32,000 nucleotides of DNA from Candidatus Poseidoniaceae archaeon (GTDB taxonomy: Archaea; Thermoplasmatota; Poseidoniia; Poseidoniales; Poseidoniaceae). The stretch is from assembly GCA_943789275.1 (NCBI GenBank), contig CALSTM010000002.1:60001-92000 (forward strand), given 5' to 3'. This document shows, in pieces, positions 2,743 to 20,378 of the stretch (positions are counted from its first letter, which is position 1; the number at the start of each line of letters is the position of its first letter). A program made the position numbers and the translations under genes. A model generated the notes under the pieces. The model saw only the letters and a program-made list of their open reading frames with translations. It was not told the origin of the DNA and did not search any database.

Positions 2743-3531
2743 TTATTCCTTCAGTAATTCGACCATGCACGCCCACACAGGCATCAATCGACGGTTCGCC
2801 TGTGAGGAGACCGAATGATGGTCGAGGTCTGCCCCTGAATCACCAGGTTGACGGCCTGCCGCCCAGTTCGACGAAATACAAACCGCCACATACGGAAGTT
2901 TGAGTTCCCGGGCAAGCTTTGCTTCGCGTGGCATCGTCATTCCGACCATATGTCCACCGAGCGTATCAATCGCGTCGATCTCGGCTTTGGTCTCGAAATG
3001 TGGTCCTTGTGCAAGCCAATAGGTGTAGAACATTCGCTCATCGTCAGAAAACCCTTGAACCGAACGCAACACCTCACTCAGCCGTTGATTGATGGCGGTG
3101 TCAAACGGTTCAGTCACCGATGTGAATACGGCTGCCTCATCATGGAAAGTCGAAGCCTTACCCGTGAAATCGATGTATTGTTCTGCTAATGCGACTTTAC
3201 CCGGTGGGAAATCTTCGGGGATTGCCCCGACCGAACAAACCGCCATAACCGCTTCACATCCCGAATCTGCGAGTGCACGCATGTTGGCACGGTGTTCAAT
3301 CATATGCGGTGGTTTACTGGCCTCGCCGCCGTTATGGTGACGTTGTAAAAAGAACAATTCTTTGTCTTCGCTTCCAGTTGACAGTCGCATGCACGTGAGT
3401 GGGACATCTCCCCAAGGCGTCTCAACGGTCACATCGTCCCTTCTCAACAATTCAATACCGGACTGTTTCATTTCTTCACCAACTGCCATGTTGATGAGAC
3501 CGGTTCCGCCAATCACTCCGAGTCGTTGCAT
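2743..3531 (-). CDS. 5'-methylthioadenosine / purine nucleoside phosphorylase family protein
   Basis: 263 aa from ATG 3529-3531 (MQRLGVIGGTG). FLQRHH and HMVGMTMPREAKLAREL...ISSNWAAG match the trimeric PNP/MTAP fold family. The track ORF runs to 3711 only because the frame stays open into rps3ae. Confidence 0.85.
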   Translation of the reverse strand: MQRLGVIGGTGLINMAVGEEMKQSGIELLRRDDVTVETPWGDVPLTCMRLSTGSEDKELFFLQRHHNGGEASKPPHMIEHRANMRALADSGCEAVMAVCSVGAIPEDFPPGKVALAEQYIDFTGKASTFHDEAAVFTSVTEPFDTAINQRLSEVLRSVQGFSDDERMFYTYWLAQGPHFETKAEIDAIDTLGGHMVGMTMPREAKLARELKLPYVAVCISSNWAAGRQPGDSGADLDHHSVSSQANRRLMPVWACMVELLKE

Positions 3532-3625
3532 ACCAGTCCCTCGCGCTATGTGTTTGTCAAACCTACGGCTCAAAAGCCGGCTGGACCTTGCTTTCGCTGA
3601 GAACAGTGTTACGGCGTCGAATGCA

Positions 3626-4621
3626 TCACTCGTTAAGACGAGCAATGAGATCTGCTTTCTTACCAGAAACTGGCTTTCCTGCAGCCTTGAGAAGCTCCTT
3701 GAGTTCTGCAACCTTCATCGATTCGTAGTCTGCAGTTGGTGCAGCCTCTTCAGCAGGTGCTTCTTCAGCAGGCGCTTCTTCAGCAGGCGCTTCTTCGGCA
3801 GGTGCTTCTTCGGCAGGTGCTTCTTCGGCAGGTGCCTTTTCAGATGCAGGTTCCATTGCTTCAGCAGCATCGATAATGGATGGAGTGGAATCTTCTTCCT
3901 CTTCATCTTCCATAGCAGATGCAAGTGCTGCTGCTTTCTTTGCTTTGATTTCCGCATCGCTGCGTGCTTCTTCAGCATGAATTTCATCAAGGGTTTTACC
4001 GTTATCAGCAACAACACCAGCTTGGAGCAATTGGCTCTTACGGATGGCGACCGACTTAACAGGGTAAATTGGTTTTACAGCCTTACGGATTTCTTCTTCG
4101 AGTGTTCCGTCAAGAATCTGGGTTTGAATCTTTGAGTAGGTTGCTTTTGAGGCAAAAGCAATGATCATGTCTCTGGCCTTCGCACGCATAGCTTGCTTAA
4201 TCGAGGTCTGAACACGCTTTTGGGTAATGATAAGCGGCTTAAGGCGAATCAGGTAACCGTCGGTCGAAACCACATCAACGACGTCATCGACTTTACCACG
4301 GTAGCGACGGATTTGTCGGCGGATGTGGTCGGTTTGGTGGTGGTGACCGATAAAAGTGGTTAGAGCATCTTGTCCAACGCACTCATGAACACGGAATCGA
4401 AGGATAACGTGCATCTTGGTAAAGTCGCCATTGAATTCTTGTTGTGTCATTTCATACACACGGCCGATAATGTGTTCATCGGACTCCCCGAGAGTCTCTC
4501 CTATTTTCTTAAAATCCCATGGTGATCGTGGGGCACGAATGGTGTACCAAATCTTGTTCTTCCACTTGTCACGTTGCTTACGTGCTGCTGCACGTGCCTT
4601 TACACTAATCTTTTTTGCCAT
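3626..4621 (-). CDS. rps3ae: 30S ribosomal protein eS1 (S3Ae) with C-terminal acidic repeat linker and SAP-like domain
   Basis: The N-terminal ~207 aa (KDKWKNKIWYTIRAP...GRVYE...FKLRF-type core) is clearly S3Ae. The C-terminal ~124 aa add (APAEE)x6 and MKVAELKELLKAAGKPVSGKKADLIARLNE. Confidence 0.92.
   Translation of the reverse strand: MAKKISVKARAAARKQRDKWKNKIWYTIRAPRSPWDFKKIGETLGESDEHIIGRVYEMTQQEFNGDFTKMHVILRFRVHECVGQDALTTFIGHHHQTDHIRRQIRRYRGKVDDVVDVVSTDGYLIRLKPLIITQKRVQTSIKQAMRAKARDMIIAFASKATYSKIQTQILDGTLEEEIRKAVKPIYPVKSVAIRKSQLLQAGVVADNGKTLDEIHAEEARSDAEIKAKKAAALASAMEDEEEEDSTPSIIDAAEAMEPASEKAPAEEAPAEEAPAEEAPAEEAPAEEAPAEEAAPTADYESMKVAELKELLKAAGKPVSGKKADLIARLNE
3741..3842. repeat. 15-bp tandem repeat, ~6.8 copies (GCAGGYGCTTCTTCR), coding (APAEE)n on the minus strand
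   Basis: Units read directly at 3753, 3768, 3783, 3798, 3813 and 3828, with a degenerate partial copy at 3741-3752. They differ only at synonymous or third positions. Confidence 0.95.
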
Positions 4622-4792: not shown

Positions 4793-5242
4793 GTGAGCCT
4801 ACACCACATCACCTGGCGCGCAACAGTCGGCGCTGTTGAAGATGAGACCGTTGTCGCAGAAGCCATTGCTTGGTTGGTTGGGGATGCAGAACTGGTCGAA
4901 ATCGAGAGAACAACTTCGTATCACGGCTCCGATATTCATATGGTCACTGGAATTTGTAAAAAAAAGCGGCAATCTCTCTCTTCACTCGCCCGGATTGGAG
5001 CGGAAAATTTGCACACGCTGTCTCAAGAAATAGAGCAACGCTTCGATGAAAACAACACGCTCCATTTCCGTTTAGATTTCCATTCGTTCATCAACGGTGA
5101 GGCTGTACTGGCAATGCCTGGAAACGAGTCGACGATAAAATGCCACACGAAAGTGGAAGTCTATCCGGGACAAGAATCGAAACAAGAATGCTTGAACGTC
5201 ATTGCCCAAGCACTTGAACTAAGCACAAAGTCGTCGGAATAA
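4793..5242 (+). CDS. small alpha/beta protein, possibly UPF0201/COG1931-type predicted RNA-binding protein
   Basis: 149 aa with a GTG start. The N-terminal pattern V.A.V...EDE..V.EAI..LVG and the later FRLD...NGEAVLA resemble the archaeal UPF0201 family. This comes from memory only. Confidence 0.45.
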   Translation: MSLHHITWRATVGAVEDETVVAEAIAWLVGDAELVEIERTTSYHGSDIHMVTGICKKKRQSLSSLARIGAENLHTLSQEIEQRFDENNTLHFRLDFHSFINGEAVLAMPGNESTIKCHTKVEVYPGQESKQECLNVIAQALELSTKSSE

Positions 5243-5294: not shown

Positions 5295-7409
5295 ATGAGT
5301 CTGAGGATGAGAGCGGTTCTGCTCACATCGCTCATGTTGGTCAGTCTCACTTTTTCCATTTCAGCAGAACATTTACCGACGATTAACGAACCGCCAGTGT
5401 GCAATGCAGACCGTCATTCAACATGGACCGTTGGACTCCTTTCATGCAACGATTCCATTGATACGGGCTATACTTTATTTTCTCCAATCCCGTCAAACAC
5501 CAGTTATCTCATCGACAGTGAGGGAAGAGAAATCCATTCGTGGGAATCACCGGGTAATCATCGCCCAGGACTCTCTTCGTATCTGCTTCCGGACGGTGAT
5601 CTGCTGCGCACTGCCAACATTGCTCAAGAAGCAGTGGGGAATTTCAGCGGCGGGGGGACTGCCGGTAAAATTGAACGAATTGGGTGGGATGGTGTTGCTG
5701 AATGGTCTTGGGAATTTTCCTCAACAACCTACATCACACACCATGACATCGAACCGATGCCAAACGGAAACATTCTCGCCATCGCGTGGGAAGACAAGAC
5801 AGAGGAAGAGGCACTCCAAGCGGGAAGAAACCCCGCCATAGCAAGTGATGCCCCAGGCGGAAGTGCCAATGTGTGGCCCGATTTTATTATCGAAATTGAA
5901 CCACTCGAAAACAATCAAGCTAATATCGTATGGGAATGGCATGCATGGGACCATCTGATACAGGATTATGATTCGTCCAAAGACAACTATGGCGTTGTTC
6001 GAGACCATCCTGAATTGCTCGACATCAATTTTGTAGGTGCTACTGGCAACCAAGCAGGCCGCGCAGATTGGATGCACTGCAATGGTATCGATTACCACGA
6101 GGGTTTCGACCAAATTGCTCTTTCGTGCAAAAACATGAATGAGATTTACATTATCGACCACAGCACGACTACTGCAGAAGCAGCAGGCCACACCGGTGGA
6201 AATTCAGGCAAAGGCGGAGACTTTCTGTATCGATGGGGGAATCCACAAACCTATGATGCCGGGCTTTCAAGCGATCAAAAACTGTTCGGGCAACACGATG
6301 TCCAGTGGATTGAGGACGGCCGACCGGGTGCAGGTGACCTGATTCTGTTCAACAACGGCGGTGGTAGGAATCCAAGTTATTCCTCAGTTGACGTGCTTCA
6401 ACTGCCGGGCAGTAACGGCCAATACCCGTTGTTAAGCAACAACACGTGGGGCCCTCAACAACTGAACTGGTCGTGGAATATTGGAGAAGACATGTACGCA
6501 CAAGCCGTATCCGGTGCAGAACGGTTGCCAAACGGGAACACTTTGGTGACCGATGGCACGCATGGAACGCTCTATGAAGTCGACCTCTCGGGCGAAATCG
6601 TATGGAAATACGTGAATCCAGTGAGCAATCAGGGTACACTGTCGCAAGGCGATGTGATTCCTGATGGAAATGTTGCAGGATCTTTAGCAAACCCCGTCTT
6701 CAAAGCCAGACGATACGCCCCCGACCATCCAGCATTCGCCGACAAAGACATGACACCTGGAACCTACATCGAAACTTTCACCGACCTTTGCCCCAACGAA
6801 GAGGCGTTGCCGTGGGACCGCGATGGAGACGGATGTACAGATGATTCAGACAACGATGGCACCACCGACCCATTCGACATCTGCCAAGGGCATGACGATA
6901 CAGTGGACATCGACAACGATACCGTACCCGACGGTTGCGATTCCTTCATTGATGCGGATGGCGACGGTGTATCGGATGCAAATGATGCGTGTGAAGGATA
7001 CAATGATTCTATAGACGCTGATGCTGATGGAGTTCCTGATGGATGTGACGCTGCACCGAACGGCGAAGCAACCAACAGCACAGAAAACAACACGCAGACC
7101 AACCAATCGGTCGACAATTCCACGGAAAACAACACGCAGACCAACCAATCGGTCGACAATTCCACGGAAAACAACACCAACGTGTCCCAACCCAGTGAAC
7201 CGAATCCGTTCAATGAAACTGAAAGTACAGTCAATACGGATTCTACATCGGGGAAGCCTGATGTGGATGCAGCCACTCTTTCTACTGCTGCACTCCTTTT
7301 CTTAGGAATCTGTGGACTCCTGTATTTTGCAGCCACCTCTTTGTGGAAGAAACCGAACGTTGATGCGGTGTCAATGGAAAAACTCGACAAGGATGTCGAG
7401 GAAAAATAA
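5295..7409 (+). CDS. secreted, C-terminally membrane-anchored protein: arylsulfotransferase(ASST)-like beta-propeller + thrombospondin-type-3 Ca-binding repeats + Asn-rich stalk
   Basis: Signal peptide MRAVLLTSLMLVSLTFSISA. GYTLFSP..SYLIDSEGREIHSW, HHDIEPMPNGNILAIAWE and NGNTLVTDG are ASST-like propeller motifs. DRDGDGCTDDSDNDGTTD and DADGDGVSDANDAC are TSP3-like. NSTENNTQTNQSVD repeats follow. C-terminal TM segment AALLFLGICGLLYFAATSL. Confidence 0.7.
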   Translation: MSLRMRAVLLTSLMLVSLTFSISAEHLPTINEPPVCNADRHSTWTVGLLSCNDSIDTGYTLFSPIPSNTSYLIDSEGREIHSWESPGNHRPGLSSYLLPDGDLLRTANIAQEAVGNFSGGGTAGKIERIGWDGVAEWSWEFSSTTYITHHDIEPMPNGNILAIAWEDKTEEEALQAGRNPAIASDAPGGSANVWPDFIIEIEPLENNQANIVWEWHAWDHLIQDYDSSKDNYGVVRDHPELLDINFVGATGNQAGRADWMHCNGIDYHEGFDQIALSCKNMNEIYIIDHSTTTAEAAGHTGGNSGKGGDFLYRWGNPQTYDAGLSSDQKLFGQHDVQWIEDGRPGAGDLILFNNGGGRNPSYSSVDVLQLPGSNGQYPLLSNNTWGPQQLNWSWNIGEDMYAQAVSGAERLPNGNTLVTDGTHGTLYEVDLSGEIVWKYVNPVSNQGTLSQGDVIPDGNVAGSLANPVFKARRYAPDHPAFADKDMTPGTYIETFTDLCPNEEALPWDRDGDGCTDDSDNDGTTDPFDICQGHDDTVDIDNDTVPDGCDSFIDADGDGVSDANDACEGYNDSIDADADGVPDGCDAAPNGEATNSTENNTQTNQSVDNSTENNTQTNQSVDNSTENNTNVSQPSEPNPFNETESTVNTDSTSGKPDVDAATLSTAALLFLGICGLLYFAATSLWKKPNVDAVSMEKLDKDVEEK
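7081..7178. repeat. 42-bp tandem repeat, 2.3 copies, coding (T/S)ENNTQTNQSVDNS
   Basis: Units start at 7081, 7123 and 7165 (the last is partial). Units 1 and 2 are identical except at the second base (cag versus cgg). Confidence 0.95.
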
Positions 7410-17346: not shown

Positions 17347-18213
17347 ATGGGTCCTGACGAGTTGCTGGAAATGACTCCCGCCTTGTTGGCGAAGTCGATT
17401 TTGCACCGACGCGAACGGCTTGCTGAAACCATTCCTGAGCAACTTGATGCTCGTCAAGACGAACTTCGAGCTGCTGAACCATTGGCTCGAAGTGCCAAAG
17501 AACAACGTGATGCTGTGAACGCTAAAGTTGCGAACCTGAAAAAGGAAAGAAATACAGCCCGAAAAAAGGCTCAAGAACTCTTCCGCCAAGCAGGGAAAAT
17601 TCGTGAAAGTATTGCCAACGCTGGTGGCGTGAAGGAAGCGAACCCAGAGTGGGCTCAATCGAAACTTGAAGACAAACTCAAGAAGATTGAACACGAATTG
17701 GAAACCAATGCCGGCAACCACAAGACCGAACAGAAATACCTCAAAGAAATGAAAGCATTGCTTCAGCAGCACGAAGATTGGGTGTCAAAAAGAAAAGACA
17801 ACCAAGACGAACATGCTGAAATGAAGAAAATGTATGACGATGCTCGAAACCAACTTTCCTTGTCAGAAAAGGCCCACAATGCTTTGCTTGACCACGCGAC
17901 TCAAAACGAATATTTCCACAACACCTACCTTGAGCAGGAAGCACACCGCCGTCGAGCAGACGCCCGCACCAAACGACTGGCTTTGGCACTCGACAGCAGT
18001 CAGAAGGGCATTGAACACTGGCAGAATCACATCGACAACGGATTTGATTCACTGCTTGAAAACGCACAACGTGTCAAAAACGGTGAACCGTCAAGTCACG
18101 CTCGCCGTCGAGCACGGAACAACAAGAAGGAATCGAAACCTGCCTCCTCTGGTCGATCAAAGAAAGAGCAACCCAAGCAACCCAAGCAAGCCAAGGGAGG
18201 CGAAGAAGAATGA
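17347..18213 (+). CDS. coiled-coil protein, paralog P2 (COG1340-like), K/R/Q-rich C-terminal tail
   Basis: Central motif IEHELETNAGNHKTEQKYLKEMKAL aligns by position with P1 and P3. Basic tail SSHARRRARNNKKESKP...KKEQPKQPKQAK. The track start 17326 is TTG, so I prefer ATG 17347 (17371 is also possible). The stop overlaps the next ATG (ATGA at 18210-18213). Confidence 0.72.
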   Translation: MGPDELLEMTPALLAKSILHRRERLAETIPEQLDARQDELRAAEPLARSAKEQRDAVNAKVANLKKERNTARKKAQELFRQAGKIRESIANAGGVKEANPEWAQSKLEDKLKKIEHELETNAGNHKTEQKYLKEMKALLQQHEDWVSKRKDNQDEHAEMKKMYDDARNQLSLSEKAHNALLDHATQNEYFHNTYLEQEAHRRRADARTKRLALALDSSQKGIEHWQNHIDNGFDSLLENAQRVKNGEPSSHARRRARNNKKESKPASSGRSKKEQPKQPKQAKGGEEE

Positions 18214-20378
18214 GCGATGAATGCCCCATCACGGGTTTTGATAACGCTCAGCAACATCGCTGGCCACTCGTTCACCAGTACCTTTGCGATAAACTCGAAT
18301 TACCAAACGGCGATGGACTGGAGACTTCCGCAATGGAAAAACTCTCCAAAGACATCGAAAAAACACTTTACGAACAACGCCCAAACGCTTCGATGTTGAA
18401 AAAGCGAAAGGGCTTGTATGAGCATTTGAAACGAACCGTGGAACGGAGATTCAAGGGCAGTTCTCTGCGACAATTTGGTTCTTCAGCATCCGGACTTTCA
18501 CTCTCCAGCGGTGACATGGACCTCTGTTTATTGTTGAACGACCAAAAGCCAAAGAAAATCCTCCGTTCCCTTTCAAACACGCTGAAGAATCAGGACATGG
18601 AAGACATTCAAGTGATTGCTTCGGCTAAAGTCCCGATCATCAAGTTCACCGATGAACGCACCAAAATCCCAGTTGACATTTCCATCAACAACACACTGGC
18701 CTTGCACAACACGACGCTCCTCAAGCGGTATGGAGACATGGATGAACGCATCCAGAACAGCATTCTTGCCGTCAAGTATTGGGCCTCACAACGGGATGTT
18801 GGTGATGCAGCAAAGGGTACCTTCTCGTCCTATGCTTGGAGCATCATCATGCTGCAAGCACTTCAGACAACATCACCGCCAGTTGCTCCAAACATTCAAT
18901 CCGGTAAAGAACGCACGCACCTCAAGGTAGACGGAATCGAATACGACCTCACGATGGCTGAGAATCCTGAGGATTTACTCAACGAAAAGAACACCCAATC
19001 GGTTGGAGAATTGTTCACGCACTTCATCAAACAATTGGTGCTTGAGCGGCCTTGGGAAGAGCACGTGCTTTCGATTCGAAGCGGACAACCTATCGGTCGG
19101 AACGAGAAGAAATGGAAATACGGCAAACCGCACGCCTCGACTGCTGTTGTCATGGGTGGCAAAACGCGCCTTGGCCTGCATTCGTTCCCTGTTGAAGACC
19201 CCTTCAACCACGAGCATGACTTGAGTCGGGTTCTTCGCCCCGAAGGCGCCCTTGACATTCAAGAAGAACTGTTCCGATTCTGGCTGGAACTCAACCAAGG
19301 AAAGAACTGGAATGAATTGTGTCAGCTCAAGAATCCAGAACGATTCCCTGTAGTTGAAGAAAAAGACCTGTTTGAAGACTTACGAACGCTTGCAAAAGCC
19401 GACTTCGAATTGAAAGTCAAAGCGAACAGTGAACAACTTACCGACCTTGAAGGTCGTATTGAAATGCTTCACCAAGAGCGACAAAACAACATCAAAATTT
19501 CTCAGGCACTGCGTGGCCTGTTTGAAGAAACCAGCGACTTGCGCAACGAACACCGTAAAATCGTCCGCAGCCTTCGCCCTCGCAGTGACAAAATGAATGC
19601 ACTGCAGGAAAAGCGAGACCAACTCAATCAAAAGATTGGGATTCCACTTTACAGAATCCGAGAATTAATTCTCGAAGTGTACAACAATCTCACTGACGAT
19701 GTCGACTTTTTCCAAGTCCCATCGCTTCAGCGCGAAGATGAACAATTTGCTTGGTTCTTCGAATTGCAAGCCATGCATGCCGTGGCATTGGAAGCAGATA
19801 CAGCGCACAAGGAATTCATCTCATTGGTCCGAGAGCAGAAGAAGGCGGTTAAAGATTTGAAAATCACTGAAAACAAGCAATCCGAAGTTCGAGCAGAAAT
19901 GGTGAACTCCGAACCAATTCTTGCGAACATCACCACTGAATTCAGCGAAGCCAGACAATTCGACCAGAACGCGCATTCCCTCAACAAAGTGATTCAAGAA
20001 CGACGTCGAGAGATGCGACAATTGCGCCGAGAGAAAGGTCGATTGGATGCATGGGCTCGTATTTCTGCCAAAGGAACATCAACACGAAAACCCGGCAAGA
20101 GAGATGGTAAGCGTAAATCCAAGTCGGGCCAAGCGGATTGGAAGCCTCGGAACAACGGACCTCGCCCTGAAGAAGTTCAGCACCGAGCTGCTACCGGCGG
20201 TGCACTCTCCCTCTCGGACCTGGATGTCCTCCTCAACAGCGGTGGAATTGCCTCGGTGAACACATCCAAGCCAACACCGAAATCCACCCGAAGAGCAGAA
20301 CGCAAAAAGAAGCAAAACCGCAACTTAACCGTTCGACGCGGTGAGCGCTCTCAATCTACAAAAGGGCGTAAAGAGTGA
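18210..20378 (+). CDS. Cid1/Trf4-like (non-canonical poly(A)/poly(U) polymerase-type) nucleotidyltransferase fused to a COG1340-like coiled coil and basic tail
   Basis: FGSSASGLSLSSGDMDLCLLL, AKVPIIKFTDERTKIPVDISINN, VKYWASQRDVGDAAKGTFSSYAWSIIMLQALQ..PPVAPNIQ and FPVEDPFNHEHDLSRVL form the NTase plus PAP-associated signature. The coiled coil spans aa ~385-640, followed by LLNSGGI and a K/R tail. GGGAGG Shine-Dalgarno at 18195-18200. Confidence 0.8.
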   Translation: MSDECPITGFDNAQQHRWPLVHQYLCDKLELPNGDGLETSAMEKLSKDIEKTLYEQRPNASMLKKRKGLYEHLKRTVERRFKGSSLRQFGSSASGLSLSSGDMDLCLLLNDQKPKKILRSLSNTLKNQDMEDIQVIASAKVPIIKFTDERTKIPVDISINNTLALHNTTLLKRYGDMDERIQNSILAVKYWASQRDVGDAAKGTFSSYAWSIIMLQALQTTSPPVAPNIQSGKERTHLKVDGIEYDLTMAENPEDLLNEKNTQSVGELFTHFIKQLVLERPWEEHVLSIRSGQPIGRNEKKWKYGKPHASTAVVMGGKTRLGLHSFPVEDPFNHEHDLSRVLRPEGALDIQEELFRFWLELNQGKNWNELCQLKNPERFPVVEEKDLFEDLRTLAKADFELKVKANSEQLTDLEGRIEMLHQERQNNIKISQALRGLFEETSDLRNEHRKIVRSLRPRSDKMNALQEKRDQLNQKIGIPLYRIRELILEVYNNLTDDVDFFQVPSLQREDEQFAWFFELQAMHAVALEADTAHKEFISLVREQKKAVKDLKITENKQSEVRAEMVNSEPILANITTEFSEARQFDQNAHSLNKVIQERRREMRQLRREKGRLDAWARISAKGTSTRKPGKRDGKRKSKSGQADWKPRNNGPRPEEVQHRAATGGALSLSDLDVLLNSGGIASVNTSKPTPKSTRRAERKKKQNRNLTVRRGERSQSTKGRKE

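What the first reader, a model, noticed from the sequence alone, without database searches (positions are those of the whole stretch)
3626..4000. Ribosomal protein eS1 (S3Ae) carries a C-terminal (APAEE)x6 linker and a SAP-type helix-extended-helix domain
Archaeal S3Ae is normally about 200-220 aa, but this ORF is 331 aa. After the S3Ae core come an acidic low-complexity stretch, six perfect or near-perfect APAEE units encoded by a 15-bp DNA tandem repeat (3753-3842), and the last 33 aa YESMKVAELKELLKAAGKPVSGKKADLIARLNE. That final segment fits the SAP / Rho-N-terminal motif (L..L.V.ELR..L..RGL...G.K..LI.RL) very well. SAP domains bind nucleic acid and are mainly eukaryotic. A flexible tether placing one on the small-subunit platform protein is unusual. 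It could contact mRNA, DNA or a partner, and transcription-translation coupling is a speculative option.
Basis: partly seen in the sequence, partly recalled or inferred. Interest (0 to 1): 0.65.

Follow-up and report, generated by a model that had tools for sequence, protein, structure and literature searches.

The report
Ribosomal protein eS1 with tethered SAP domain
In the abundant marine archaea of groups II and III, the small-subunit ribosomal protein eS1, which sits beside the mRNA exit, ends in a long floppy tail tipped with a small SAP domain of the DNA-binding type, so these ribosomes may be physically leashed to DNA or another nucleic acid.

Summary
Window 3626-4621 (-) encodes a 331-aa protein with four parts: an S3Ae/eS1 core (Pfam E 1.5e-52), a 32-residue helix, a disordered acidic stretch containing six APAEE units (15-bp DNA repeat, 3746-3835), and a C-terminal SAP domain (PF02037, 48 bits against a cutoff of 23.9).

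It is not an artefact. 73 of the 80 best GTDB Poseidoniales species representatives end in an in-frame SAP; the other 7 are contig ends, N-gaps, one frameshift and one early stop, all in or near the repeat region. A second clade that includes Marine Group III also has the fusion.

SAP is at least as conserved as the ribosomal core (0.87 vs 0.78 mean pairwise identity). The linker is free to vary (0.22 identity, 19-54 aa, net charge -17 to +5).

Other Thermoplasmatota carry an (HhH)2 domain at the same position. The closest solved relative of that module is the N-terminus of haloarchaeal ribosomal protein eL32.

SAP domains tested in the literature (Tho1, SAFB2) bind dsDNA. The best reading is therefore a flexibly tethered duplex-DNA binder at the 30S platform, beside the mRNA exit, possibly coupling translation to transcription. 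That mechanism is inferred, not shown.

I found no paper describing the fusion. It is a new variant of a known kind, of moderate to high interest.

The parts
3626..4621 (-). Complete eS1 (S3Ae)-SAP gene, 331 codons plus stop (stop codon at 3626-3628)
   Evidence: ORF list. Homologs 70-97% identical share the same start (MAKK...) and the same end (...RLNE).
4022..4585 (-). S3Ae/eS1 core domain, residues 13-200
   Evidence: Pfam PF01015 E 1.5e-52. NCBIfam PRK04057 scores 190 bits, just under its 198-bit cutoff. AF2 pLDDT about 90. Foldseek to archaeal eS1 chains: TM 0.95-0.96 normalised by target, rmsd 1.3 A.
3896..3991 (-). Conserved long alpha-helix of the extension, residues 211-242 (TLDEIHAEEAR..ELKAKKAAALA.AM)
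   Evidence: AF2 helix H211-242, pLDDT 64-74. Mean pairwise identity 0.74 over residues 201-236 among 74 Poseidoniales sequences. Residues 200-262 searched alone gave no PDB sequence match.
3890..3910 (-). Acidic patch, residues 238-244 (EDEEEED)
   Evidence: Read directly from the sequence. Always acidic, but variable in length across homologs.
3836..3883 (-). Short conserved motif PSI[IL]DAAEAMEPxSEK, residues 247-262, inside the disordered region
   Evidence: Found in 115 of 119 close homologs by regex. Less conserved across the whole order (0.38). AF2 pLDDT below 50. Function unknown; it could be a linear binding motif.
3746..3835 (-). Six tandem 15-bp units encoding (APAEE)x6, residues 263-292: the variable spacer
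   Evidence: TRF. Unit-by-unit DNA comparison. Copy number and charge vary among near-identical relatives, from APAEE to APAEK to APAKK. AF2 pLDDT about 32, i.e. predicted disordered.
3629..3730 (-). SAP domain, residues 298-331 (DYESMKVAELKELLKAAGKPVSGKKADLIARLNE)
   Evidence: Pfam PF02037 48-54 bits against a cutoff of 23.9. Tail profile vs PDB: Tho1 SAP 1.5e-11, MKL1 SAP 2.6e-11. AF2 helix 304-313, loop, helix 322-330, pLDDT about 82. Mean identity 0.87 among 66 species; invariant positions V..LK..LK..G..VSGKK..L..R.

Best explanation
SHOWN. This is the genuine eS1 (S3Ae) small-subunit ribosomal protein gene of a Marine Group II archaeon (Poseidoniaceae). In the whole class Poseidoniia (MGII and MGIII) the protein is built as: eS1 core, then a conserved helix, then a disordered and mostly acidic spacer that evolves freely in length and charge through slippage of a 15-bp repeat, then a SAP domain under purifying selection as strong as that on the ribosomal core. 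Other Thermoplasmatota lineages carry an (HhH)2 domain in place of SAP. Haloarchaea carry the same kind of (HhH)2 module on large-subunit protein eL32.

INFERRED MECHANISM. The core anchors the protein on the 30S platform, where eS1 together with uS11 and h26 walls the mRNA-exit / Shine-Dalgarno chamber. The spacer works as an entropic leash: about 55 disordered residues, a contour length near 20 nm, with net charge that keeps it off the rRNA. The SAP domain at its tip binds duplex nucleic acid non-specifically, most likely chromosomal dsDNA. That would keep small subunits, or whole ribosomes, near the template so that nascent transcripts are captured as they emerge. This amounts to factor-independent support for co-transcriptional translation or nucleoid-proximal translation.

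My confidence is about 0.95 for the architecture and its selection, about 0.65 that the tip binds a nucleic acid, and about 0.4 that the ligand is dsDNA with a role in coupling.
For: Domain calls and disorder. Breadth: the top 120 homologs almost all pair PF01015 with PF02037. 73 of 80 GTDB Poseidoniales species are in-frame through SAP, including the MG-II chromosome CM001443.1. A second SAP-bearing clade of 240-300 aa includes 'Marine Group III euryarchaeote CG-Bathy1 eS1'. Selection: SAP identity 0.87, core 0.78, linker 0.22; linker 19-54 aa with net charge -17 to +5. Convergence: nine S3Ae representatives from other Thermoplasmatota carry HHH_5 above Pfam's cutoff at the C-terminus. After eL32, the nearest solved relatives of these HhH tails are the dsDNA-binding (HhH)2 modules of Pol X, RadA/Rad51, Topo V, Hel308 and ComEA. 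Ligand type: Tho1 SAP, the closest solved relative, binds dsDNA but not dsRNA (PMC4909252), and SAFB2 SAP binds only dsDNA (PMC9958909). Position: eS1 lines the SD-duplex / mRNA-exit chamber (PMC9932298 section 10; PMC7005279). Archaeal coupling is supported by polysomes seen near DNA and by RNAP-ribosome co-isolation (PMC8576121).
Against: Nothing here shows binding to anything. The extension as a whole is strongly acidic (-23) and the SAP domain is only +1, which would weaken or auto-inhibit DNA binding. Isolated SAP domains bind DNA only at micromolar affinity (PMC9958909). Near-invariance of surface residues fits a specific partner (rRNA or a protein) better than backbone-only DNA contacts. 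Many Thermoplasmatota have an acidic tail with no terminal domain, so the tail may have a primary role that does not depend on SAP. SAP-like and (HhH)2 folds can also mediate protein-protein contacts: PIAS1 and MANF/CDNF are among the fold-search hits, and from general knowledge so are the NusA AR domains. The exact point where the C-terminus leaves the 30S surface was not measured here.
Confidence: 0.45

Rival explanations
1. RNA ligand. The tethered SAP binds RNA rather than DNA. One version has it binding the 5' leader of mRNA as it leaves the exit channel, a bS1-like fishing line that aids mRNA recruitment. The other has it binding a helix of the organism's own rRNA in cis, as a structural strap.
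For: eS1 sits at the mRNA exit / SD chamber. The high conservation of SAP surface residues fits a conserved RNA target such as rRNA. HhH-type folds do bind rRNA in ribosomal proteins: the weak Ribosomal_S13 hit of an HhH tail, and from general knowledge uS13. Lysine-rich tails on S3Ae in other archaea would bind any polyanion.
Against: The closest solved SAP relative did not bind dsRNA, and SAFB2 SAP bound only dsDNA. A stable cis rRNA contact would not need a hypervariable spacer of about 55 disordered residues whose length varies roughly three-fold. SD-like GGTGA/GAGG motifs lie upstream of about 8 of 18 genes in the window, so a special SD-independent capture device is not obviously required.
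Confidence: 0.25
2. Protein docking. The SAP domain, perhaps together with the conserved PSILDAAEAMEPxSEK motif, recruits a protein partner to the platform. Candidates are RNA polymerase or Spt4/5, an initiation factor, a hibernation or dimerisation factor, or a chaperone.
For: Near-invariant surface residues, plus a short conserved linear motif inside a disordered region, are typical of protein-protein interfaces. SAP or SAP-like domains that bind proteins appear among the fold-search hits: the PIAS1 p53-binding domain and MANF/CDNF-BiP. In eukaryotes eS1 is a docking surface for the HCV IRES and, from general knowledge, for eIF3.
Against: Swapping SAP for (HhH)2 in sister lineages is hard to reconcile with one conserved protein partner, and easy to reconcile with a shared generic ligand such as duplex nucleic acid. 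No candidate partner gene is linked to the locus, and gene neighbourhoods differ between the three loci examined.
Confidence: 0.15
3. The acidic tail is the functional element and SAP is an accessory. The tail would act as an electrostatic modulator or entropic bristle at the platform, analogous to the poly-glutamate tail that RimK adds to bacterial bS6, which occupies the place of eS1.
For: Acidic C-terminal tails without any terminal domain are common on S3Ae across Thermoplasmatota, for example Methanomassiliicoccales at 234-287 aa. The extension here carries a net charge of -23. bS6 and bS18 occupy the eS1 position in bacteria, and the eS1 C-terminal domain resembles bS6 (PMC9932298).
Against: This does not explain why SAP is as conserved as the ribosomal core. 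Nor does it explain why some Poseidoniales linkers have flipped to net-basic APAKK repeats while keeping SAP unchanged.
Confidence: 0.1
4. Artefact. The extension results from assembly error, read-through of a stop codon, or a chimeric gene call.
For: The repeat does break assemblies. Among the 80 GTDB loci there are N-gaps in or near the repeat (L023, L063), a frameshift within the extension (L011) and contig ends (L005, L007, L044).
Against: The same in-frame architecture appears in 73 of 80 independent species-level genomes, in thousands of metagenomic proteins from several sources, and in MGIII. The SAP reading frame is under purifying selection.
Confidence: 0.01

Closest known systems
Canonical archaeal eS1 / S3Ae (for example Pyrococcus, Thermococcus, Saccharolobus and Methanosarcina ribosome structures)
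   Same: Residues 13-200 have the same fold and are clearly the same family (TM 0.95-0.96, rmsd 1.3 A, 32-38% identity). The position on the 30S platform beside the mRNA exit is therefore expected to be the same.
   Different: Solved archaeal chains are 184-222 aa, and 178-190 residues are modelled. None has the 131-residue helix, disordered spacer and SAP extension.
Haloarchaeal ribosomal protein eL32 with an N-terminal (HhH)2 module (H. marismortui L32e, PDB 1JJ2 chain X, 240 aa; 9L94 chain Q)
   Same: An archaeal ribosomal protein carrying an extra small domain of a dsDNA-binding type at one terminus. It is the closest solved relative (E 7e-21) of the (HhH)2 tails that replace SAP on S3Ae in other Thermoplasmatota.
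   Different: Different ribosomal protein, different subunit (50S), different terminus (N) and different fold ((HhH)2, not SAP). I found no paper discussing its function.
Eukaryotic SAP domains of the Tho1 / SARNP (Hcc-1) / MKL1 type
   Same: Sequence-level homology including the N-cap (sADYSSlTV..LK.LL......V.G.K..L..RL), with E 1.5e-11 to Tho1 and 2.6e-11 to MKL1, and a helix-extended loop-helix prediction. The tested members bind dsDNA.
   Different: Those are nuclear chromatin, mRNP or transcription proteins. Here the domain is the C-terminus of a ribosomal protein in an archaeon. Nucleic-acid binding has not been tested for this one.
Bacterial bS1, and the RimK poly-Glu tail of bS6 (functional analogies only; from general knowledge)
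   Same: Flexible, platform-located appendages near the mRNA exit that influence mRNA recruitment. bS6 and bS18 occupy the eS1 position in bacteria.
   Different: No homology. bS1 uses OB-fold S1 domains to bind single-stranded RNA. The bS6 tail is added post-translationally and has no terminal domain.
Pro/Ala-rich inter-domain linkers (for example 2-oxoacid dehydrogenase E2 lipoyl-domain linkers; from general knowledge)
   Same: Low-complexity Ala/Pro/charged repeats acting as extended, flexible spacers between folded domains.
   Different: Here the linker is encoded by a near-perfect 15-bp tandem repeat. Copy number and charge are polymorphic among close relatives.

Membership tests
Ribosomal protein eS1 / S3Ae (PF01015) | Profile match above the curated cutoff over the whole domain | tested here: met
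   PF01015 178.4 bits against a cutoff of 29.3, covering profile positions 3-189 of 191. NCBIfam equivalog PRK04057 scores 190 bits, slightly below its strict 198-bit cutoff.
Ribosomal protein eS1 / S3Ae (PF01015) | eS1 three-dimensional fold | tested here: met
   The AF2 core has pLDDT about 90. Foldseek to archaeal eS1 chains gives TM 0.95-0.96 and rmsd 1.3 A.
Ribosomal protein eS1 / S3Ae (PF01015) | It is the organism's ortholog (single copy), not an extra-ribosomal paralog | tested here: inconclusive
   Each of the 80 GTDB genomes contributes one locus, and no short MGII-type S3Ae appeared among the close homologs. Whole genomes could not be scanned for a second, divergent copy. The 37%-identical SAP clade is assigned to MGIII by a source name, not shown to be a paralog.
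Ribosomal protein eS1 / S3Ae (PF01015) | Incorporation of the full-length form into 30S subunits | not testable with these tools
   Needs proteomics or cryo-EM of ribosomes from an uncultured organism.
SAP domain (PF02037) | Profile match above the curated cutoff | tested here: met
   48.1 bits in the full protein, 52.6-53.7 bits for the tail alone, against a cutoff of 23.9. Precomputed PF02037 appears on nearly all homologs.
SAP domain (PF02037) | Two amphipathic helices joined by an extended loop with a conserved Gly, about 35 residues | tested here: met
   AF2 gives H304-313, loop 314-321, H322-330 at pLDDT about 82, and the same from the single-sequence model. Invariant G and the VSGKK loop. 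Foldseek E-values for the 44-aa model are not significant (best 0.17), although nine of the ten top-ranked hits are SAP or SAP-like domains.
SAP domain (PF02037) | Homology to experimentally characterised SAP domains | tested here: met
   Profile of 16 tails against PDB sequences: Tho1 1.5e-11, MKL1 2.6e-11, SIZ1 2.1e-5, E1B-AP5 8.3e-5, Ku70 5.3e-4, Hcc-1 5.4e-4.
SAP domain (PF02037) | Binds double-stranded DNA | not testable with these tools
   Only inferred from Tho1 and SAFB2. Needs EMSA or NMR.
Rho N-terminal domain (Rho_N, PF07498) | Profile match | tested here: not met
   Rho_N is absent from the Pfam hit lists even at E<=10, for both the full protein and the isolated tail.
HeH/LEM domain (PF12949) | Profile match above the curated cutoff | tested here: not met
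   14.0-24.5 bits against a cutoff of 28.9, always far weaker than SAP.
Ribosomal proteins with a tethered (HhH)2 module (S3Ae-HhH of Thermoplasmatota; eL32-HhH of haloarchaea) | HHH_5 / (HhH)2 domain present in the protein | tested here: not met
   The window's protein has no HhH match. The nine S3Ae representatives that do (HHH_5 29-58 bits against a cutoff of 27) are different lineages. The window protein is analogous to this group in architecture, not a member of it.

The most novel reading that the evidence does not exclude
Several archaeal lineages have independently hard-wired a dsDNA-binding module onto their ribosomes through a flexible leash: SAP on eS1 in Poseidoniia, (HhH)2 on eS1 in other Thermoplasmatota, and (HhH)2 on eL32 in haloarchaea. 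Ribosomes would thus be physically tethered to the chromosome, giving a factor-independent mechanism of transcription-translation coupling or nucleoid-anchored translation that has not been described in any domain of life.
Probability: 0.25. Interest if true: 0.85.

Novelty: new variant of a known kind. Interest (0 to 1): 0.6.

Why it matters
Marine Group II archaea are among the most abundant archaea in the surface ocean and remain uncultured, so anything about their core machinery has to be read from sequence. Here a universal ribosomal protein at the mRNA exit carries a conserved DNA-binding-type domain on a leash. Related lineages solve the same problem with a different dsDNA-binding fold, and haloarchaea attach that fold to another ribosomal protein.

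This recurrence suggests an unrecognised functional class: ribosome-tethered duplex-nucleic-acid binders. How archaea couple transcription and translation is an open question, and this pattern yields a concrete hypothesis that can be tested. Two routes exist: the biochemistry of a 35-residue domain, and genetics of the eL32 (HhH)2 module in Haloferax.

There are also two practical points. The polymorphic 15-bp repeat repeatedly breaks or frameshifts MAG assemblies of a phylogenetic marker gene. And automatic annotation sometimes names this ribosomal protein only 'SAP domain-containing protein' or 'hypothetical protein'.

Tried and rejected
(1) Rho_N or HeH/LEM instead of SAP. Rejected: Rho_N gives no hit at E<=10 and HeH is below its cutoff.

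(2) Assembly artefact or read-through. Rejected by 73 of 80 in-frame GTDB species and thousands of metagenomic homologs.

(3) The helix and motif region (residues 200-262) as a homolog of the eukaryotic eS1 C-terminal extension. phmmer against PDB found nothing at E<=10, so this is not supported.

(4) 'These archaea lack Shine-Dalgarno sites, so they need a bS1-like capture arm'. SD-like GGTGA/GAGG motifs precede about 8 of 18 genes in the window, so this rationale is not supported.

(5) Other SAP domains in the window. A six-frame HMM scan found only this one.

(6) Fold search of the tail alone. No significant E-value (best 0.17), because the model is a 44-residue single-sequence prediction; only the ranking is informative.

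(7) Synteny to decide whether the second SAP clade is an ortholog or a paralog. The gene neighbourhoods share nothing, so this was uninformative. A source name (MGIII CG-Bathy1) gave the assignment instead.

(8) Neighbour-joining tree of cores. The two SAP clades did not group together and HhH lineages were scattered. The tree has long branches and no support values, so it cannot decide between one gain and several.

(9) Regex-based census of tail types among the 150 representatives. Too crude (82 unclassified); only the HMM counts are used (12 SAP, 9 HhH).

(10) Literature searches for the fusion. Nothing found.
Full report
OBSERVATION

Pfam places Ribosomal_S3Ae at residues 13-200 (E 1.5e-52) and SAP (PF02037) at 298-331 (E 7.8e-13; 48.1 bits against a curated cutoff of 23.9). 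The last 33 or 39 residues scanned alone score 52.6-53.7 bits. HeH/LEM stays below its cutoff, and Rho_N does not appear even at E<=10.

Tandem Repeats Finder reports a 15-bp period with 6.5 copies at 3747-3843. In coding register there are six perfect APAEE units (residues 263-292, window 3746-3835). DNA units 1-3 are identical to each other, units 4-5 are identical to each other, and unit 6 differs at two bases. Solved archaeal eS1 chains are 184-222 aa.

ANATOMY

An AlphaFold2 model built from a 38-sequence alignment has the following parts:
- a confident core (pLDDT about 90 through residue 200);
- a long helix at 211-242 (pLDDT 64-74);
- a disordered stretch at 244-296 (pLDDT about 32), which contains an acidic patch (EDEEEED), a short motif (PSIIDAAEAMEPASEK) and the repeat;
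- a confident helix, loop, helix at 304-313 and 322-330 (pLDDT about 82).

The core superposes on eS1 from Pyrococcus, Thermococcus, Saccharolobus and Methanosarcina ribosomes, with TM 0.95-0.96 and rmsd 1.3 A. None of those chains has any extension. Net charges are +19 for the core, -23 for the whole extension and +1 for SAP.

A profile of 16 SAP tails searched against PDB sequences finds yeast Tho1 SAP (E 1.5e-11), MKL1 (2.6e-11), then SIZ1, E1B-AP5, Ku70 and Hcc-1/SARNP. Even the N-cap 'sADYSSlTV' is shared with Tho1. A fold search with a 44-residue single-sequence model gave no significant E-value (best 0.17), although nine of the ten top-ranked hits are SAP or SAP-like domains. The sequence evidence is what decides membership.

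NOT AN ARTEFACT, AND NOT A ONE-OFF

Nearly all of the 120 best homologs (70-97% identical, 314-376 aa) carry both PF01015 and PF02037. Where sources name them, they are Poseidoniales or Poseidoniaceae, sometimes annotated only as 'SAP domain-containing protein' or 'hypothetical protein'.

A scan of one genome per GTDB species returned 80 loci, all Poseidoniales, including the original MG-II chromosome CM001443.1. In 73 of them the S3Ae frame runs through to a SAP terminus. The other seven are contig ends (L005, L007, L044), N-gaps (L023, L063), a frameshift in the acidic region (L011) and one locus that stops just after its repeat (L079). The low-complexity repeat region, then, is where these assemblies tend to fail.

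A second large marine clade is only about 37% identical in the core and is 240-300 aa long. It has the same architecture with a shorter acidic spacer and a clearly homologous SAP (DYSSMKVAELKELLKEKDLPVSGTKAELIERL). One member of it is 'Marine Group III euryarchaeote CG-Bathy1, small ribosomal subunit protein eS1'. The fusion therefore spans class Poseidoniia (MGII plus MGIII; taxonomy).

SELECTION

Among 74 Poseidoniales sequences, mean pairwise identity is 0.78 for the core, 0.74 for the helix at 201-236, 0.32-0.38 for the acidic patch and motif, and 0.22 for the repeat spacer. Anchored on its own motif, the SAP block is 0.87 identical (minimum 0.65) across 66 species, with V..LK..LK..G..VSGKK..L..R invariant.

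Among the 115 close homologs that carry the EPxSEK motif, the spacer ranges from 19 to 54 residues and from net -17 to +5. The charge flips through APAEE, APAEK and APAKK units. In the seven closest GTDB relatives a strict APA[EK][EK] count gives 1-5 units between near-identical flanks, against 6 here. This pattern is what a spacer looks like: only its existence and flexibility matter. It ends in a domain whose exact surface does matter.

THE WIDER PATTERN

An exhaustive search of 1.84 billion cluster representatives shows that long C-terminal tails are common on S3Ae outside the classical model archaea. Among the best 150 representatives, my own HMMs find 12 with SAP and 9 with a helix-hairpin-helix module. 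All nine score above Pfam's HHH_5 cutoff (29-58 bits against 27) at the C-terminus, after an acidic or mixed linker. Others have purely acidic or lysine-rich tails.

Where named, the HhH-bearing proteins are Thermoplasmata, Thermoplasmatota or Ca. Saliniplasma. Methanomassiliicoccales-type proteins (234-287 aa) have acidic tails with no terminal domain. So within one phylum the same position carries either SAP or (HhH)2.

The closest solved relative of the HhH tails is the N-terminus of haloarchaeal large-subunit protein eL32 (9L94 chain Q, E 7e-21; H. marismortui L32e, 1.5e-17). Next come the dsDNA-binding (HhH)2 modules of Pol X, RadA/Rad51, Topo V, Hel308, ComEA and FAAP24. This is a precedent for a ribosomal protein carrying a DNA-binding-type module, and I found no paper that discusses it.

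A neighbour-joining tree of the cores could not resolve whether SAP was gained once or twice, or how the HhH lineages relate to each other.

MECHANISM

What is established from the literature:
- eS1, with uS11 and h26, forms one wall of the mRNA-exit / Shine-Dalgarno chamber of the archaeal 30S, and it occupies the place of bacterial bS6/bS18 (PMC9932298; PMC7005279).
- Tho1 SAP binds dsDNA but not dsRNA (PMC4909252).
- SAFB2 SAP binds only dsDNA, at micromolar affinity (PMC9958909).
- Archaeal transcription and translation appear to be coupled: polysomes lie near DNA in T. kodakarensis, and RNAP, ribosomal proteins and aIFs co-isolate in Haloferax (PMC8576121).

Putting these together with the convergence of two unrelated dsDNA-type folds at the end of the same leash, the best-supported model is as follows. 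The core anchors the protein at the platform. The disordered spacer of about 55 residues lets the tip explore roughly 5-20 nm (my estimate from contour length). The tip binds duplex DNA non-specifically, which keeps small subunits close to the template and to emerging transcripts.

I rate 'binds a nucleic acid' at about 0.65 and 'binds dsDNA and promotes coupling' at about 0.4.

Four points count against this model. The extension is very acidic and could auto-inhibit binding. Isolated SAP domains bind weakly. The near-invariant surface suggests a specific partner such as rRNA or a protein. And many relatives have the acidic tail without any domain.

The rivals are an RNA ligand (mRNA leader or rRNA in cis), protein docking, and the acidic tail as the primary element, analogous to the poly-Glu tail of bS6. 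The idea that these archaea need such a device because they lack SD sites is not supported, since SD-like motifs precede about 8 of 18 genes in the window.

ORIGIN OF THE SAP MODULE

SAP modules 53-77% identical occur on 147 stretches of IMG/VR viral contigs. They are mostly in small proteins (70-280 aa), several of which look like a membrane helix, then an acidic linker, then SAP. So this SAP subtype is not exclusively eukaryotic, and viruses are a plausible route of exchange. The direction of transfer was not tested.

NOVELTY AND VERDICT

The proteins are in public databases and are tagged with both Pfam domains automatically. Full-text searches combining SAP domain with S3Ae, and with Marine Group II, MGII, Poseidoniales or Thermoplasmatota, together with separate searches on S3Ae C-terminal extensions and on eL32 with helix-hairpin-helix, found no description of the fusion or of the wider pattern.

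Lineage-specific extensions of ribosomal proteins are a known kind of thing. A conserved, tethered SAP domain on eS1 across a whole abundant archaeal class, with (HhH)2 substituting in sister lineages, is a new variant of that kind. The functional reading is inferred, but it is now specific enough to test.

Noticed in passing
P0133, P0137, P0139, P0142, P0148, P0149, P0152, P0154, P0156 (for example locus L162 6001-6939): In other Thermoplasmatota (Thermoplasmata, Ca. Saliniplasma), S3Ae ends in an (HhH)2 / HHH_5 domain instead of SAP, after an acidic or mixed linker. A different dsDNA-type fold sits at the same position.
   Followed up: yes
PDB 1JJ2 chain X and 9L94 chain Q (found through alignment A3): Haloarchaeal large-subunit protein eL32 (234-240 aa) carries an N-terminal (HhH)2 module closely related (E 7e-21) to the S3Ae HhH tails. 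No paper discussing it was found.
   Followed up: partly
window 18210-20378 (+): A 722-aa ORF with an MTPAP-like / Cid1-type nucleotidyltransferase palm domain (PF22600, E 1.5e-33; weaker PAP_assoc and TUTase hits). That is a eukaryote-like non-canonical poly(A)/poly(U) polymerase-type enzyme in an archaeon.
   Followed up: no
L093, L109, L117, L136 (IMG/VR viral contigs); also L152 (giant-virus MAG): Small viral proteins built as a predicted membrane helix, an acidic linker and a C-terminal SAP that is 60-77% identical to the eS1 SAP. L152 has a Lys-rich region and two SAP copies. The module appears to be common and mobile in marine viruses.
   Followed up: partly
L011, L023, L063 (GTDB Poseidoniales loci): The repeat and acidic region of this marker gene causes a frameshift (L011) or N-gaps (L023, L063) in MAG assemblies. 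Gene callers also add spurious N-terminal extensions of about 30-40 aa in some records (P0006-P0009, P0020).
   Followed up: partly
L041 (CAXQWT010000045.1): A contig encoding a typical Poseidoniales eS1-SAP (66% identity) is filed in a MAG titled 'Salipiger bermudensis', a bacterium. Probably a mis-binned contig.
   Followed up: no
window 7079-7177: A near-perfect 42-bp tandem repeat (2.4 copies, 98% matches) inside the 704-aa arylsulfotransferase-like ORF at 5295-7409.
   Followed up: no
window 2743-3711 (-): The mechanical ORF for the downstream PNP/MTAP-like phosphorylase overlaps the 3' end of the eS1 gene only because of an upstream TTG. The likely true start is the Met of MQRLGVIGGTG (about 3528), which leaves roughly 97 bp between the genes.
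   Followed up: partly
P0143, P0145, P0150, P0163, P0208, P0213: In other, unnamed archaeal lineages S3Ae carries lysine-rich, histone-H1-like tails (for example AKKPAAKKAPAKK). This is a third kind of polyanion-binding appendage at the same terminus. Their taxonomy was not determined.
   Followed up: no
window 4793-5242 (+): A PF01877 'RNA_binding' family protein (149 aa) is transcribed divergently from the eS1-SAP gene.
   Followed up: no
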